A stretch of 64,000 bases of DNA from positions 16,008,464 through 16,072,463 of the forward strand of contig NC_043011.1 in assembly GCF_006345805.1 (NCBI RefSeq), read 5' to 3'. The notes under the pieces are model-generated. The model saw nothing but the letters and a program-made list of their open reading frames with translations. It was not told where the DNA came from and did not search any database. This DNA is from Octopus sinensis (Eukaryota). Position numbers and translations under genes: made by a program. Shown here in pieces: positions 15,471 to 61,486 of this stretch (the first letter of the stretch is position 1; each line of letters starts with the position of its first letter).

Positions 15471-15535
<65 letters not shown>

Positions 15536-15774
15536 CTTGTTAATTTCCCGATAATACCCGATAATTCTTGTTAAGATCCCTTATTAAGAGATTATCCTTA
15601 ATTGTTAAACTTATTCCGAAATGCTTTTCATTACCCGACATGCAGTTCGTAAAAAGCCCGCCATTTACCGGATATATGATTTATAAACATTCCATGTGCT
15701 TGGCCGGAGTGAGCAGTTGTCTGTTCGTCTTCGCTACGTAAGGTTGGTAGTTTATAAATGATGTGTTCAGAATC

Positions 15775-15832
15775 AGTTCTGCTGATGATCATAAGACGTA
15801 AGTTGAATGTGAAATCACGGTGATACAGAACT
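15775..15832 (+). ncRNA. Type I hammerhead ribozyme, array copy 1
   Basis: AGTTCTG-CTGATGA-TCATAAGACGTAAGTTGAATGT-GAAA-TCACGGTGA-TA-CAGAACT: 7-bp stem I, intact core, stem II with GTAA loop, stem III, AUA cleavage triplet (predicted cut after 15825). Confidence 0.85.
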
Positions 15833-16251
15833 AAATTCATTTTTTAAATGTCTTGCTTTGAAAAACTGCATTTGGGTATGATTAGTATAATTTTGGTAGT
15901 AATGACTTTGTCCCTCTTAGTGTGAGGCATTTATGTGTAATAATGCCCTCTAACAATATAGATATAATTAATTTGTTCAAAAGAAAAAAATTATTTTCGA
16001 ATTCTTTTCTTTTATGAGGTTTTCACGCTAACTACCCGAAAATTTCTTGTTAAGATCCCTTATTAAGAGATTATCCTTAATTGTTAAACTTATCCGAAAT
16101 ACTTTTCTTACCCGACATGCAGTTCGTAAAAAGCCCGCCATTTACCGGATATATGATTTATAAACATTCCATGTGCTTGGCCGGAGTGAGCAGTTGTCTG
16201 TTCGTCTTCGCTACGTAAGGTTGGTAGTTTATTTATGATGTGTTCAGAATC

Positions 16252-16309
16252 AGTTCTGCTGATGATCATAAGACGTAAGTTGAATGTGAAATCACGGTGA
16301 TACAGAACT
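16252..16309 (+). ncRNA. Type I hammerhead ribozyme, array copy 2
   Basis: Identical motif to copy 1. Confidence 0.85.
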
Positions 16310-16730
16310 AAATTCATTTTTTAAATGTCTTGCTTTGAAAAACTGCATTTGGGTATGATTAGTATAATTTTGGTAGTAATGACTTTGTCCCTCTTAGTGT
16401 GAGGCATTTATGTGTAATAATGCCCTCTATACAATATAGATATAATTAATTTGTTCAAAAGAAAAAAAATATTTTCGAATTCTTTTCTTTTATGAGGTTT
16501 TCACGCTAACTACCCGATAATTTCTTGTTAAGATCCCTTATTAAGAGATTATCCTTAATTGTTAAACTTATTCCGAAATACTTTTCATTACCCGACATGC
16601 AGTTCGTAAAAAGCCCGCCATTTACCGGATATATGATTTATAAACATTCCATGTGCTTGGCATAGTGAACAGTTGTCTGTTCGTCTTTGCTACGTAAGGT
16701 TGGTAGTTTATTTATGATGTGTTCAGAATC

Positions 16731-16788
16731 AGTTCTGCTGATGATCATAAGACGTAAGTTGAATGTGAAATCACGGTGATACAGAACT
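16731..16788 (+). ncRNA. Type I hammerhead ribozyme, array copy 3
   Basis: Identical motif to copy 1. Confidence 0.85.
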
Positions 16789-17210
16789 AAATTCATTTTT
16801 TAAATGTCTTGCTTTGAAAAACTGCATTTGGGTATGATTAGTATAATTTTGGTAGTAATGACTTTGTCCCTCTTAGTGTGAGGCATTTATGTGTAATAAT
16901 GCCCTCTATACAATATAGATATAATTAATTTGTTCAAAAGAAAAAAATTATTTTCGAATTCTTTTCTTTTATGAGGTTTTCACGCTAACTACCCGATAAT
17001 TTCTTGTTAAGATCCCTTATTAAGAGATTATCCTTAATTGTTAAACTTATTCCGAAATACTTTTCATTACCCGACATGCAGTTCGTAAAAAGCCCGCCAT
17101 TTACCGGATATATGATTTATAAACATACCATGTGCTTGGCCGGAGTGAGCAGTTGTCTGTTCGTCTTCGCTACGTAAGGTTGGTAGTTTATTTATGATGT
17201 GTTCAGAATC

Positions 17211-17268
17211 AGTTCTGCTGATGATCATAAGACGTAAGTTGAATGTGAAATCACGGTGATACAGAACT
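17211..17268 (+). ncRNA. Type I hammerhead ribozyme, array copy 4
   Basis: Identical motif to copy 1. Confidence 0.85.
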
Positions 17269-17688
17269 AATTCATTTTTTAAATGTCTTGCTTTGAAAAA
17301 CTGCATTTGGGTATGATTAGTATAATTTTGGTAGTAATGACTTTGTCCCTCTTAGTGTGAGGCATTTATGTGTAATAATGCCCTCTATACAATATAGATA
17401 TAATTATTTGTTCAAAAGAAAAAAATTATTTTCGAATTCTTTTCTTTTATGAGGTTTTCACGCTAACTACCCGATAATTTCTTGTTAAGATCCCTTATTA
17501 AGAGATTATCCTTAATTGTTAAACTTAATCCGAAATACTTTTCATTACCCGACATGCAATTCGTAAAAAGCCCGCCATTTACCGGATATATGATTTATAA
17601 ACATTCCATGTGCTTGGCCGGAGTGAGCAGTTGTCTGTTCGTCTTCGCTACGTAAGGTTGGTAGTTTATTTATGATGTGTTCAGAATC

Positions 17689-17746
17689 AGTTCTGCTGAT
17701 GATCATAAGACGTAAGTTGAATGTGAAATCACGGTGATACAGAACT
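17689..17746 (+). ncRNA. Type I hammerhead ribozyme, array copy 5
   Basis: Identical motif to copy 1. Confidence 0.85.
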
Positions 17747-18168
17747 AAATTCATTTTTTAAATGTCTTGCTTTGAAAAACTGCATTTGGGTATGATTAGT
17801 ATAATTTTGGTAGTAATGACTTTGTCCCTCTTAGTGTGAGGCATTTATGTGTAATAATGCCCTCTATACAATATAGATATAATTAATTTGTTCAAAAGAA
17901 AAAAATTATTTTCGAATTCTTTTCTTTTATGAGGTTTTCACGCTAACTACCCGATAATTTCTTGTTAAGATCCCTTATTAAGAGATTATCCTTAATTGTT
18001 AAACTTAATCCGAAATACTTTTCATTACCCGACATGCAGTTCGTAAAAAGCCCGCCATTTACCGGATATATGATTTATAAACATTCCATGTGCTTGGCCG
18101 GAGTGAGCAGTTGTCTGTTCGTCTTCGCTACGTAAGGTTGGTAGTTTATTTATGATGTGTTCAGAATC

Positions 18169-18226
18169 AGTTCTGCTGATGATCATAAGACGTAAGTTGA
18201 ATGTGAAATCACGGTGATACAGAACT
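18169..18226 (+). ncRNA. Type I hammerhead ribozyme, array copy 6
   Basis: Identical motif to copy 1. Confidence 0.85.
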
Positions 18227-18645
18227 AAATTCATTTTTTAAATGTCTTGCTTTGAAAAACTGCATTTGGGTATGATTAGTATAATTTTGGTAGTAATTAC
18301 TTTGTCCCTCTTAGTGTGAGGCATTTATGTGTAATAATGCCCTCTATACAATATAGATATAATTAATTTGTTCAAAAGAAAAAAATTATTTTCGAATTCT
18401 TTTCTTTTATGAGGTTTTCACGCTAACTACCCGATAATTTCTTGTTAAGATCCCTTATTAAGAGATTATCCTTAATTGTTAAACTTAATCCGAATACTTT
18501 TCATTACCCGACATGCAGTTCGTAAAAAGCCCGCCATTTACCGGATATATGATTTATAACATACCATGTGCTTGGCCGAGTGAGCAGTTGTCTGTTCGTC
18601 TTCGCTACGTAAGGTTGGTAGTTTATTTATGATGTGTTCAGAATC

Positions 18646-18703
18646 AGTTCTGCTGATGATCATAAGACGTAAGTTGAATGTGAAATCAGGGTGATACAGA
18701 ACT
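18646..18703 (+). ncRNA. Type I hammerhead ribozyme, array copy 7 (stem III variant TCAGGGTGA)
   Basis: Same motif with C>G in loop III. Confidence 0.8.
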
Positions 18704-19121
18704 AAATTCATTTTTTAAATGTCTTGCTTTGAAAAACTGCATTTGGGTATGATTAGTATAATTTTGGTAGTAATGACTTGTCCCTCTTAGTGTGAGGCAT
18801 TTATGTGTAATAATGCCCTCTATACAATATAGATATAATTAATTTGTTCAAAAGAAAAAAATTATTTTCGAATTCTTTTCTTTTATGAGGTTTTCACGCT
18901 AACTACCCGATAATTTCTTGTTAGATCCCTTATTAAGAGATTATCCTTAATTGTTAAACTTAATCCGAAATACTGTTCATTACCCGACATGCAGTTCGTA
19001 AAAAGCCCGCCATTTACCGGATATATGATTTATAACATTCCATGTGCTTGGCCGAGTGAGCAGTTGTCTGTTCGTCTTCGCTACGTAAGGTTGGTAGTTT
19101 ATTTATGATGTGTTCAGAATC

Positions 19122-19179
19122 AGTTCTGCTGATGATCATAAGACGTAAGTTGAATGTGAAATCACGGTGATACAGAACT
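19122..19179 (+). ncRNA. Type I hammerhead ribozyme, array copy 8
   Basis: Identical motif to copy 1. Confidence 0.85.
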
Positions 19180-19598
19180 AAATTCATTTTTTAATGTCTT
19201 GCTTTGAAAAACTGCATTTGGTATGATTAGTATAATTTTGGTAGTAATGACTTTGTCCCTCTTAGTGTGAGGCATTTATGTGTAATAATGCCCTCTATAC
19301 AATATAGATATAATTAATTTGTTCAAAAGAAAAAAATTATTTTCGAATTCTTTTCTTTTATGAGGTTTTCACGCTAACTACCCGATAATTTCTTGTTAAG
19401 ATCCCTTATTAAGAGATTATCCTTATTGTTAAACTTAATCCGAAATACTTTTCATTACCCGACATGCAGTTCGTAAAAAGCCCGCCATTTACCGGATATA
19501 TGATTTATAAACATACCATGTGCTTGGCCGGAGTGAGCAGTTGTCTGTTCGTCTTCGCTACGTAAGGTTGGTAGTTTATTTATGATGTGTTCAGAATC

Positions 19599-19656
19599 AG
19601 TTCTGCTGATGATCATAAGACGTAAGTTGAATGTGAAATCACGGTGATACAGAACT
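19599..19656 (+). ncRNA. Type I hammerhead ribozyme, array copy 9
   Basis: Identical motif to copy 1. Confidence 0.85.
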
Positions 19657-20072
19657 AAATTCATTTTTTAAATGTCTTGCTTTGAAAAACTGCATTTGGG
19701 TATGATTAGTATAATTTTGGTAGTAATGACTTTGTCCTCTTAGTGTGAGGCATTTATGTGTAATAATGCCCTCTATACAATATAGATATAATTAATTGTT
19801 CAAAAGAAAAAAATATTTTCGAATTCTTTTCTTTTATGAGGTTTTCACGCTAACTACCCGATAATTTCTTGTTAAGATCCCTTATTAAGAGATTATCCTT
19901 AATTGTTAAACTTAATCCGAAATACTGTTCATTACCGACATGCAGTTCGTAAAAAGCCGCCATTACCGGATATATGATTTATAAACATTCCATGTGCTTG
20001 GCCGGAGTGAGCAGTTGTCTGTTCGTCTTCGCTACGTAAGGTTGGTAGTTTATTTATGATGTGTTCAGAATC

Positions 20073-20129
20073 AGTTTGCTGATGATCATAAGACGTAAGT
20101 TGAATGTGAAATCAGGGTGATACAGAACT
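20073..20129 (+). ncRNA. Type I hammerhead ribozyme, array copy 10 (1-nt deletion in stem I, TCAGGGTGA variant)
   Basis: AGTTTG-CTGATGA...GAAA-TCAGGGTGA-TA-CAGAACT. Confidence 0.7.
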
Positions 20130-20395
20130 AAATTCATTTTTTAAATGTCTTGCTTTGAAAAACTGCATTTGGGTATGATTAGTATAATTTTGGTAGTAAT
20201 GACTTTGTCCCTCTTAGTGTGAGGCATTTATGTGTAATAATGCCCTCTATACAATATAGATATAATTAATTTGTTCAAAAGAAAAAAATTATTTTCGAAT
20301 TCTTTTCTTTTATGAGGTTTTCACGCTAACTACCCGATAATTTCTTGTTAAGATCCCTTATTAAGAGATTATCCTTAATTGTTAAACTTATATAT

Positions 20396-20453
<58 letters not shown>

Positions 20454-31331: not shown

Positions 31332-31499
31332 TATATATATATTATATATATATATAAAAAATTTATAAGTAAGGGAAAAGAATAATTTTCTAATGCCAAA
31401 ATATGCCGAAAATAGACATAACATCAATAACCATGTAATCAATCACTACAAGCAAGCGTTTCGAAGAAAACCGACAGAAATTTCTAAAAAATCCCGTTA

Positions 31500-31560
31500 T
31501 TACCATATCGGACCCGATTTCAGAGTTAGTTCATAAGAACCTTGTCTTCATCAGTGATAA
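31500..31560 (-). ncRNA. Type I hammerhead ribozyme in a TA-flanked island (about 31357-31690)
   Basis: Minus strand TTATCA-CTGATGA-AGACAAGGTTCTTATGAACTAACTCT-GAAA-TCGGGTCCGA-TA-TGGTAA: all three stems pair, intact core, AUA triplet. Confidence 0.8.
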
Positions 31561-32745
31561 ATGCTGCAAAGAAATAAGTGAAATACTTACTTATACCCAT
31601 GGAAGAAGTGAACACTAAGTCACGAGCACAATTAAGTACCCCAAATATATCCAATATAGAAACTCTCTAGCCCATCTCGAGACACATATATATAAAATTA
31701 AATTAAATTTTTTATCTTATATATATATATATTATTTTGCTCTTCTGAAAACATTAAGAATATTGGTAGTGATGCTGAGAGATATACCCGCTTTCATTTC
31801 AATTTCCATGCAAGTTAAATCCAATTGCGTCACTGAAGTCTTTGACAAGGTGTGAATATTAAAATAATATTACATCCGTCTTCTGTATCCCTTATATCGA
31901 TTTTTTGGGGGCGGGGAGATATGCGGTTTAAAATTAAGTTAAAATATCAATTATAAACTGGAACGAATTTTGAAGTAGTAGTGTTAATAGATCGATTTGA
32001 AATTATAGATTTTCGAGTTCATTAATTATAGATCCATTATGAAAATCTGGGAGACCAAAATGTTATGCAAACAAAATGGTTTCTGAAATGAAATGTGAAA
32101 TATTTAGAATGGTTAATACATTACACAAAATTGTACACTCTAATCCCTGTGCCTCTTATGTAGATTATATTATTCCAAAGTTACCAACAAAAGAATTCCT
32201 TGGCTATCCCTTCAGAATCTGCCCTAACTCAATCTATATTATCATCGAAAGTGGAAAGACACGTAGGATAATGTAATCCATGACGCAAGCAGGTGCGTTA
32301 TCAGTGGAAATTTTACACTCTTGCTAACTAGGGCTAAAATTATGCAATTTCAATAATATATAATGCTGGATTCTATGAAAGCTTTACATCAGGGCTTATA
32401 TCATATAAAACCTGAATGCAGCTGCTATTCGTGTTTGTCTCTTTTTCAATTTATAATTCGGATGTTGAGAAAGACTTTGCATCTTCCCATTTTATTTTGC
32501 CTTGATGTTGAATACCTACGTTCACACTTCAAACATTGAGCAAATATACGAAACCCCAAACACTTATCGGCATACAAAATTGGCTTAACTTTTTTTTATA
32601 TTTCTATCTCACTTTTAACTTTAATAAAAGGTGGAAACCATTTTACATTCTCCCTTTATATGGCAGCTGTAGCTTATTATTTTGTAACTGTTTTATTTCA
32701 TTCTTCGCAATTATATTTCGTCGAATGTACATACATACATACATA

Positions 32746-59691: not shown

Positions 59692-59693
<2 letters not shown>
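59388..59693 (+). repeat. ~105-bp diverged direct duplication around a (TA)n tract
   Basis: CTCTAGATTAG...TCCAAATCAAATTATCCATTAAAT.TGGAGTACTA at about 59388-59493 and 59588-59693. Confidence 0.85.
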
Positions 59694-59771
<78 letters not shown>

Positions 59772-59857
59772 ATATATAAAAGTTGAGTTGTGGAGTATCG
59801 CACGAGTGGAATTATATATGAAAGAAGATTTGAAAATGCAATTTAAAAGATGTTTAT

Positions 59858-59902
59858 TTACTTAACCGGTTTCACTCTTTGGTAAAAGATTGTCAAAAGT
59901 AA
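59858..59902 (-). ncRNA. Minimal type I hammerhead with U3-A8 variant core
   Basis: TTACTT-TTGACAA-TCTTTTACCAAAGAGT-GAAA-CCGG-TT-AAGTAA; 6-bp stem I, palindromic stem III ACCGGT. Confidence 0.65.
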
Positions 59903-60594
59903 CATTGAATATTATGGGTTCAAAAAAAAGTTTTTTACATAATTGTCACATTGAATATTATGAATTCAAAAATGTTTTATTATACATAATTGTCACATTA
60001 CATGTATAAATATAGTGTTTGGTAACAGAGATATGTTAAGGGCATAAAAAAGTTCAATAGTGTGATGAGAATATTTGGAAAAATTGGCAGAAAAGAATAA
60101 AACAAATATATTATTGGAAATTTGGTTGCGTTAATTATTGATTGTCGCAAATTGTCACATTACATGTATATATATACAGTCTTTGGTAGAAAGGACATGT
60201 TAAAGACATAAGGAAGTGTAATAGTTTGGTGAGAAAGCTTGTAATATTGACAGAGAAAATTAAAATGGATATTTTAGACATCTCAGAATATTTTGAAATG
60301 AAGGCGAGAATTTGTTTTTACTGACCTGTTTGTTTTAGCAGAAAAGTTGAATTGAGAGAAAAAAAGATGTGTACCCAGTTTGGTTTATGGTTCCCCTTCA
60401 AGCATCAATGATTTTGGGGTTATCGGGAGGTGAGTATGCGGGTGTGAATAGATGTGTCCGTGTGCCTGCTGGTCAGACGGCGTCTGTTTGTCACACACAT
60501 ATATACACACACACAACACACACACACACACACACATAGTATACAAACACACATGTATGTATATATGTATATGTGTATATATATATATACACAC

Positions 60595-60678
<84 letters not shown>

Positions 60679-60752
60679 TTGAGTTGTGGAGTATCGCACG
60701 AGTGGAATTATATATGAAAGAAGATTTGAAAATGCAATTAAAAGATGTTTAT

Positions 60753-60796
60753 TTACTTAACCGGTTTCACTCTTGGTAAAAGATTGTCAAAAGTAA
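60753..60796 (-). ncRNA. Minimal type I hammerhead with U3-A8 variant core (second copy)
   Basis: TTACTT-TTGACAA-TCTTTTACCAAGAGT-GAAA-CCGG-TT-AAGTAA. Confidence 0.65.
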
Positions 60797-61486
60797 CATT
60801 GATATATGGGTTCAAAAAAAAGTTTTTTACATAATTGTCACATTGAATATTATGAATTCAAAAATGTTTTATTATACATAATTGTCACATTACATGTATA
60901 AATATAGTGTTTGGTAACAGAGATATGTTAAGGGCATAAAAAAGTTCAATAGTGTGATGAGAATATTTGGAAAAATTGGCAGAAAAGAATAAAACAAATA
61001 TATTATTGGAAATTTGGTTGCGTTAATTATTGATTGTCGCAAATTGTCACATTACATGTATATATATACAGTCTTTGGTAGAAAGGACATGTTAAAGACA
61101 TAAGGAAGTGTATAGTTTGGTGAGAAAGCTTGTAATATTGACAGAGAAAATTAAAATGGATATTTTAGACATCTCAGAATATTTTGAAATGAAGGCGAGA
61201 ATTGTTTTTACTGACCTGTTTGTTTTAGCAGAAAAGTTGAATTGAGAGAAAAAAAGATGTGTACCCAGTTTGGTTTATGGTTCCCCTTCAAGCATCAATG
61301 ATTTTGGGGTTATCGGGAGGTGAGTATGCGGGTGTGAATAGATGTGTCCGTGTGCCTGCTGGTCAGACGGCGTCTGTTTGTCACACACATATACACACAC
61401 ACAACACACACACACACACACATAGTATACAACACACATGTATGTATATATGTATATATGTGTATATATATATATACACACACACA

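What the first reader, a model, noticed from the sequence alone, without database searches (positions are those of the whole stretch)
15631..16107. The whole array unit folds into a branched RNA structure with G-U pairs favouring the hammerhead strand
Seen by eye: a long stem TACCCGA-C-ATGCAGTT...AAAGC / GCTTT...AACTGCAT-TTGGGTA encloses the hammerhead domain. Further hairpins are GAGCAG-TTGT-CTGTTC, GAGGCATT...AATGCCCTC, AAAAGAAAA.AATT / AATTCTTTTCTTTT and GATAATTTCTT..TAAG-ATCC-CTTA..AAGAGATTATC. Several non-Watson-Crick positions are G-U on the + strand and would be A-C on the minus strand. Inference: selection acted on the RNA fold, as in retrozyme or viroid-like circRNAs, rather than on DNA palindromy.
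Basis: partly seen in the sequence, partly recalled or inferred. Interest (0 to 1): 0.75.

Follow-up and report, generated by a model that had tools for sequence, protein, structure and literature searches.

The report
Retrozyme RNA fold kept under selection
This 479-base non-coding repeat carries a hammerhead self-cutting RNA motif in every copy, and base changes among its sister families show that much, though not all, of its predicted RNA fold has been preserved on one strand; it is likely a new member of a known class of animal jumping RNAs (retrozymes) that Penelope-type enzymes copy into TA repeats.

Summary
The helices are real. The circular unit folds far better than shuffles (plus strand z -6.9, minus -3.7). 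Its conclusion holds on better evidence. Eleven sister subfamily groups in the same genome (68-92% identical) show 14 compensatory changes against 1.9 expected, and one-sided changes to G-U outnumber those to A-C 35 to 12. Outside the ribozyme the signal is weaker but present (5 vs 1.6; 49:19). It lies in the enclosing stem and 5' arm; the 3' hairpins as a group are unsupported. The array is a non-LTR retrozyme: 10 units between TA tracts, one of many dispersed insertions. All 32 two-armed insertions examined end once at each of two fixed sites, as Penelope-like elements (PLEs) here do. The scan noted such two-armed retrozymes before on other DNA. Added here: the covariation test, a predicted switch (double hammerhead in the multimer, blocked core in the circle) and one retrozyme-PLE chimera. 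Cleavage, circles and expression are untested.

The parts
15544..20391 (+). Tandem array, 10.1 units of about 479 bp, 98% matched, 33% G+C; one-armed insertion starting at unit position 197 and ending at 269 (numbered from the predicted cut)
15472..15531 (.). Left (TA)30 target tract; 15532-15560 holds short duplicated pieces of the unit at the 5' junction
20389..20451 (.). Right (TA)n tract joined to the fixed 3' end at unit position 269
15775..15832 (+). Type I hammerhead, copy 1: helix I 15775-15781/15826-15832, core 15782-15788, helix II with U.U at its base, GAA 15811-15813, palindromic helix III 15814-15824, predicted cut after AUA between 15825 and 15826
   Evidence: no Rfam hit
15632..15878 (+). 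Enclosing stem (15632-15647/15864-15878) and inner helices (15653-15657/15855-15859; 15662-15667/15845-15850) around the hammerhead
15671..15768 (+). 5' arm (base helix with compensatory changes) with apical hairpin 15711-15726, kept in register only in the closest families
15918..16030 (+). 3' domain: long-range helix 15918-15925/16023-16030, GGCAT hairpin 15926-15947 (97.8% paired, one compensatory event), poorly kept A/U hairpin 15979-16013
15945..15966 (+). First fixed 3' end site of the family (unit position about 142), just behind the GGCAT hairpin
16038..16093 (+). Last hairpin (16038-16075) and second fixed 3' end site (unit position 269)

Best explanation
The array is a young genomic insertion of a non-coding, hammerhead-bearing repeat whose plus-strand RNA fold has been preserved across sister families, and it was likely copied from a circular RNA by a Penelope-like element's enzyme (a non-LTR retrozyme). 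Shown: the hammerhead motif, the covariation, many dispersed insertions in TA tracts, two fixed 3' ends, and intact PLE reading frames in the genome. Inferred cycle: read-through transcription makes a multimer. The unit fold brings each monomer's two ends together, so palindromic helix III strands of neighbouring ribozymes are predicted to pair as a double hammerhead and cut out monomers. A host ligase would close them. The lone circle is predicted to pair its catalytic core with helix III and so stay uncut. A PLE protein would cut both strands of a TA tract, prime at one of two internal sites on each side, and copy round the circle, giving arrays with one or two arms.
For: Hammerhead core in 10 of 10 units, plus strand only; helix III intact in 8 of 10. 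RNAalifold on 18 real copies recovers the active hammerhead and enclosing stems; 21 of 65 pairs have two-sided changes. Tree-counted compensatory events 14 vs 1.9+-1.4 over 115 pairs; outside the hammerhead 5 vs 1.6+-1.2 over 92 pairs, p=0.016, G-U:A-C events 49:19. Unpaired positions show no such transition bias, and pairs predicted from the minus strand still favour plus-strand G-U 23:8. 230 matches from 40 of 1263 candidates scored; 807 exact hammerhead-pattern hits, 0 for the control. Of 46 insertions, 32 are two-armed and 32 of 32 have one end at 263-269 and one at 109-148 (28 at 140-148); 13 are one-armed; 1 was cut by the locus edge. Two insertions carry a variant seen in no other insertion in all units on both arms (L220, 9 units; L224, 4 units). 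PLE frames of 775-883 codons are present; one scanned has RT and GIY-YIG. A PLE family pairs a short and a long end in 5 of 6 two-armed insertions. The unconstrained fold of a two-ribozyme stretch is a double hammerhead in 2 of 3 tested.
Against: No run on record as RNA holds the unit, so expression, cleavage and circles are untested. Folding z favours the minus strand in 3 of 6 sister copies. Paired positions change nearly as often as unpaired ones (e.g. 0.30 vs 0.32). On real copies the number of pairs with a two-sided change is not significant (21 vs 17.5+-2, 27 of 500 shuffles). Among array-fixed variants at paired sites 7 of 15 break the pair. The window's array has variants shared by only some units, which one circular template does not explain. 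The retrozyme profile matches no PLE end in 50 GIY-YIG loci or 20 further PLE loci, apart from separate retrozyme insertions in L076 and L247. Energy models omit hammerhead tertiary contacts and co-transcriptional folding, and strand swapping between tandem hairpins is generically favoured.
Confidence: 0.78

Rival explanations
1. Only the hammerhead and its immediate stems are selected. The rest of the fold is a by-product of A/U richness and of local duplications made during copying.
For: 9 of 14 compensatory events lie in the hammerhead. The 3' domain alone is not significant.
Against: Non-hammerhead pairs still show 5 vs 1.6 compensatory events, fewer breaks (37 vs 46.8) and 49:19 G-U:A-C. 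79% of cells pair against 38-48% with partners slid.
Confidence: 0.2
2. The element is copied by PLE enzymes from linear multimeric transcripts of source arrays. No circle is needed, and the fold serves ribozyme folding and protein binding.
For: Variants shared by only some units of the window's array. In vitro the anole PLE uses uncut RNA as its main template (PMC11167929). A closed unit-length contig arises from tandem DNA too.
Against: Insertion-specific variants in every unit of both arms fit one short template read repeatedly. Circles are shown for coral, mussel and axolotl retrozymes (PMC7229834).
Confidence: 0.25
3. DNA-level inverted repeats (cruciforms or single-stranded DNA hairpins) in a satellite expanded by unequal crossing-over.
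For: The minus strand also folds better than shuffles (z -3.7), and both strands are equal without G-U.
Against: G-U over A-C bias among substitutions, a one-strand ribozyme, and dispersed insertions with fixed 3' and variable 5' ends.
Confidence: 0.04
4. The G-U bias comes from A-to-I editing of the RNA template being copied into DNA, not from selection.
For: Among one-sided changes at paired sites A>G outnumbers T>C 21 to 5.
Against: Young copies show no clear A>G excess: fixed variants 5 A>G vs 1 T>C of 21, private 17 vs 24. C>T also exceeds G>A (14 to 7). Editing cannot make two-sided changes, and it would itself need a paired RNA.
Confidence: 0.08

Closest known systems
Animal non-LTR retrozymes (Cervera and de la Pena 2020, PMC7229834: part 3 of the text, Discussion and passages read; review PMC7761336: passages)
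   Same: Tandem non-coding low-GC units, each with a type I hammerhead; predicted self-paired circle; U.U at the base of helix II as in axolotl HHR_Amex2; PLEs proposed as helpers.
   Different: Unit of 479 nt is above their 150-450 bp. That paper has no hit for 'covari', 'compensat', 'inverted', 'microsatellite', 'cephalopod' or 'octop'. It finds that most invertebrate motifs cleave as monomers and leaves open how circles avoid cutting; here a dimer-only switch is predicted.
Retrozymes as non-autonomous PLE sequences (Li, Clavereau, Pollet 2026, 10.64898/2026.07.22.740005: parts 1-3 of 5 read, abstract to discussion; supplements not seen)
   Same: Co-occurrence with PLEs; size within their 51-972 bp.
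   Different: They rely on pLTR sequence similarity in Xenopus and sampled 35 species, no mollusc among the groups named. Here no pLTR similarity was found; the link is the insertion pattern and one chimera. Their supplements might list relatives.
Penelope-like elements: two internal start sites (Frangieh et al. 2024, PMC11167929: parts 1-2 of 4 read); inverted arms, tail at one end, (TA)n bias (Craig et al. 2021, PMC8557442: passages)
   Same: Both strands cut and extended, AT-rich targets, two fixed internal start sites, an inverted 5'-truncated arm.
   Different: No reading frame; the two sites are about 127 nt apart instead of 30-40; template is likely a small circle.
Viroids and plant LTR retrozymes (recalled, and as summarised in PMC7229834)
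   Same: Self-paired RNA whose ribozyme is predicted to be blocked in the circle.
   Different: Genome-encoded, type I hammerhead on one strand only, no LTR structure seen, no evidence of RNA-to-RNA replication.

Membership tests
Animal non-LTR retrozyme | Type I hammerhead motif in each repeat unit | tested here: met
   Core in 10 of 10 units, helix III intact in 8 of 10; helices I-III recovered with covariation. No Rfam hit.
Animal non-LTR retrozyme | Short tandem units, G+C under 50% | tested here: met
   479 bp x 10.1, 33% G+C; above 150-450 bp, within 51-972 bp.
Animal non-LTR retrozyme | No protein coding | tested here: met
   Only 52-79-codon minus-strand frames, not kept in length across 18 copies; no PLE protein match in the window.
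Animal non-LTR retrozyme | Dispersed mobile copies, co-occurring with PLEs | tested here: met
   PLE frames.
Animal non-LTR retrozyme | Self-cleavage of the transcript | not testable with these tools
   Needs in vitro transcription; 8 of 9 predicted Xenopus elements did not cleave.
Animal non-LTR retrozyme | Accumulation as unit-length circular RNA | not testable with these tools
   Only contigs were available; they cannot show strand, ends or circles.
Animal non-LTR retrozyme | Target-site duplication when present | tested here: inconclusive
   Both flanks are (TA)n, so a duplication cannot be read.
PLE pLTR derivative | Sequence similarity to the terminal repeat of an autonomous PLE | tested here: inconclusive
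   None in 70 PLE loci, a small part of 5029 first-look candidates.
PLE-mobilised element | Two fixed internal 3' ends, inverted truncated arm, AT-rich target | tested here: met
   32 of 32 two-armed insertions; same rule in 5 of 6 PLE insertions.
Autonomous PLE | RT plus GIY-YIG reading frame | tested here: not met
Viroid-like replicon | Ribozyme on both strands | tested here: not met
   Hammerhead core only on plus within the array; other ribozyme classes gave no Rfam hit.
Viroid-like replicon | RNA-to-RNA replication | not testable with these tools
   No stranded reads.

The most novel reading that the evidence does not exclude
The unit fold is a selected switch and landing pad. It docks neighbouring ribozymes into a double hammerhead so that only multimers are cut, locks the core in the monomer circle, and presents two hairpin-flanked start sites to a Neptune/Nematis-type PLE enzyme that primes one site from each DNA end. 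The L241 chimera, a PLE arm at its short end joined to a retrozyme arm at its long end, would then record a helper and its parasite in a single integration event.
Probability: 0.3. Interest if true: 0.72.

Novelty: new member of a known kind. Interest (0 to 1): 0.5.

Why it matters
Animal retrozyme circles have been drawn from energy minimisation. My searches found no covariation test of such a fold and no cephalopod retrozyme paper; subscription journals and supplements were not covered. This radiation of 12 subfamily groups gives evolutionary evidence that structure beyond the ribozyme matters. It also gives a concrete, cheap test of the open question of how these circles avoid cutting themselves, and a lead to the helper enzyme. 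The class itself is known, and the scan has already noted similar two-armed families.

Tried and rejected
Rfam finds no hammerhead here or in four related loci. Single-copy G-U counting was rejected as evidence. Expression: no RNA holder listed. Runs guessed to be RNA hold a contig that closes on itself at unit length, which a tandem array also gives; summed contig depths are not copy numbers. An editing signature in young copies was not found. The contrast of array-fixed with single-unit variants (8 keep:7 break vs 36:149) was not used, because single-unit variants are mostly transversions and may be assembly errors. Pfam PF26215 is not in the library. A 65-nt arm joined to an F1 copy (L024/L268) is 100% identical to the neighbouring element and 86-89% to other copies, so it was rejected as helper evidence. 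The L244 PLE-retrozyme junction may be an insertion with deletion beside an older PLE; L242 and L246 are separated from their PLEs. Only 1 of 77 distinct one-armed 5' flanks runs directly into PLE coding sequence. The 69-codon minus-strand frame at 15631-15840 is not conserved. Rows left out: 209 of 434 profile hits were shorter than 330 positions or duplicates, and 5 of 226 copies (chimeric or outlying clusters) were not used for family profiles; 23 of 138 pairs had letters in fewer than 6 families; the more distant family in L112, L116, L121, L122 and L191 was not aligned. The host was not identified by any search; 'octopus-like' is recalled and echoed by earlier notes.

Full report
Setting. 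The finding is one permutation of the unit of a tandem array at 15544-20391: 10.1 copies of about 479 bp between two (TA)n tracts. Each unit carries a type I hammerhead core on the plus strand (10 of 10), with a predicted cut after AUA at 15825/15826. Two units have a changed helix III. Rfam does not recognise it. The genome is 2.72 Gb; no call identified the host.

Observation. The named helices are present. The stretch folds better than dinucleotide shuffles on both strands, more so on plus: z -5.30 and -2.78 linear, -6.85 and -3.71 circular. Nine background windows gave +2.3 to -2.1. The by-eye G-U argument does not stand: 19 versus 8 G-U pairs is below the 22.7 and 13.0 that shuffles give, because the plus strand is rich in U and G. 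With G-U forbidden the energies are equal.

Homologues. The unit has 230 matches among 40 of 1263 candidates scored, mostly 93-100% identical, too close for covariation. A 73% identical relative turned up by chance. Further searches gave 12 subfamily groups, 68-96% identical to each other; the hammerhead pattern has 807 exact hits and its control none. The groups were partly found with that pattern, so constancy of the core and of helix III is not evidence.

Covariation. I took the structure from the window copy alone (138 pairs with probability 0.7 or more) and mapped it on a structure-blind alignment. Broken pairs were fewer than in a substitution-shuffle null at p<0.05 in 9 of 11 groups, which are not independent. 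One-sided transitions at Watson-Crick pairs gave 35 G-U and 12 A-C states, p=0.001. Unpaired sites showed no such bias, and pairs predicted from the minus strand gave 23:8 in favour of plus. On a tree, 14 events changed both sides and kept the pair, against 1.9+-1.4 when partners were re-dealt; A-C events were depleted while G-U events matched that null. Without the hammerhead: 5 vs 1.6+-1.2 (p=0.016), breaks 37 vs 46.8, G-U:A-C 49:19. The enclosing stem and 5' arm carry this (4 vs 1.2; 39:13); the 3' domain does not (1 vs 0.8; 10:6). On 18 real copies, 79% of non-hammerhead cells pair versus 38-48% slid, and cells with two-sided changes are 60 vs 31+-4, but pairs with such changes (21 vs 17.5+-2) are not significant. 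RNAalifold recovers the active hammerhead, the enclosing stems and the GGCAT hairpin, and not the apical, A/U or last hairpin. Against the reading: z favours plus in 3 of 6 sister copies and minus in 3, and paired sites are only slightly more conserved.

Mobilisation. Of 46 insertions of the youngest family (top hits and pattern hits, not a random sample), 32 are head-to-head two-armed; each ends once at unit position 263-269 and once at 109-148, nearly always in (TA)n. Thirteen, including the window's, are one-armed. I saw the two end sites; the one-end-each rule and the wording 'two-armed' follow earlier notes of the scan and were then counted here. L220 and L224 carry an insertion-specific variant in all units of both arms, which fits one template read repeatedly. 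The window's array also has variants in only some units, which does not. The genome holds intact PLE frames with a C-x4-C-x2-C linker like the motif described for Neptune and Nematis. PLE copies end at two sites about 35-40 nt apart in (TA)n, matching the two start sites shown in vitro for the anole PLE (PMC11167929). At L241 1297-2930 a retrozyme arm with its long end abuts a PLE arm with its short end, with no TA between; the arms differ from their closest relatives by 2.8-4.1% and 2.1-3.2%. This is 1 of 77 flanks: a lead, not proof.

Mechanism. In the circle the lowest-energy fold pairs the core with helix III; the active fold costs 4.6 kcal/mol more, and 1.1-5.2 in 7 sister copies. In a stretch with two ribozymes the unconstrained fold is a double hammerhead for the window and for one sister, not for a third, decayed copy; for the window it lies about 8 kcal/mol below two monomeric ribozymes. 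Dimeric cleavage is known for amphibian retrozymes. The published discussion leaves open how animal circles avoid cutting. These energies omit tertiary contacts and kinetics, so the switch is a prediction.

Verdict. The fold is real and, for the ribozyme, enclosing stem and 5' arm, selected on the plus-strand RNA; 'whole unit' overstates it. The element works like, and meets every testable sequence feature of, an animal non-LTR retrozyme. Cleavage, circles and expression remain untested. New member of a known kind; interest 0.5.

Noticed in passing
window 31518-31554, minus strand (element about 31375-31730): A second, solo type I hammerhead motif of different sequence between TA tracts; its helix III is again a 5-bp palindrome with a 2-nt centre.
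   Followed up: partly
window 59692-61438: Two pieces about 75% identical to a hammerhead-bearing element end in L268 that lies beside a PLE reading frame; 46-47-bp internal repeats.
   Followed up: partly
L241 1297-2930 (G000:C2): Head-to-head junction of a retrozyme arm and a PLE arm without TA between, similar divergence; possible joint integration.
   Followed up: yes
L247-L266, PLE 3' ends: This PLE family has a degenerate hammerhead core in nearly all copies shown, yet spread; its ribozyme may be dispensable.
   Followed up: no
L063, L072: A PLE family whose 3' hammerhead has U.U at the base of helix II, like the array's.
   Followed up: no
alignment A1 columns 486-523 and 1-33: A 13-nt indel removes only the top of the last hairpin, and the more distant families carry an extra hairpin just after the 269 end that the window's family lacks.
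   Followed up: no
L112, L116, L121, L122, L191: A more distant hammerhead family with the same helix III and similar 3' regions; perhaps the 404-bp family of note e1-8806667, not checked.
   Followed up: no
runs X1, X8, X13, X14: Contigs hold a further variant of the unit whose hammerhead was not among the own-genome pattern hits.
   Followed up: no
L213, L236, L237: A minor 3' end at unit positions 109-114 replaces the 142 end in 3 of 32 two-armed insertions.
   Followed up: no
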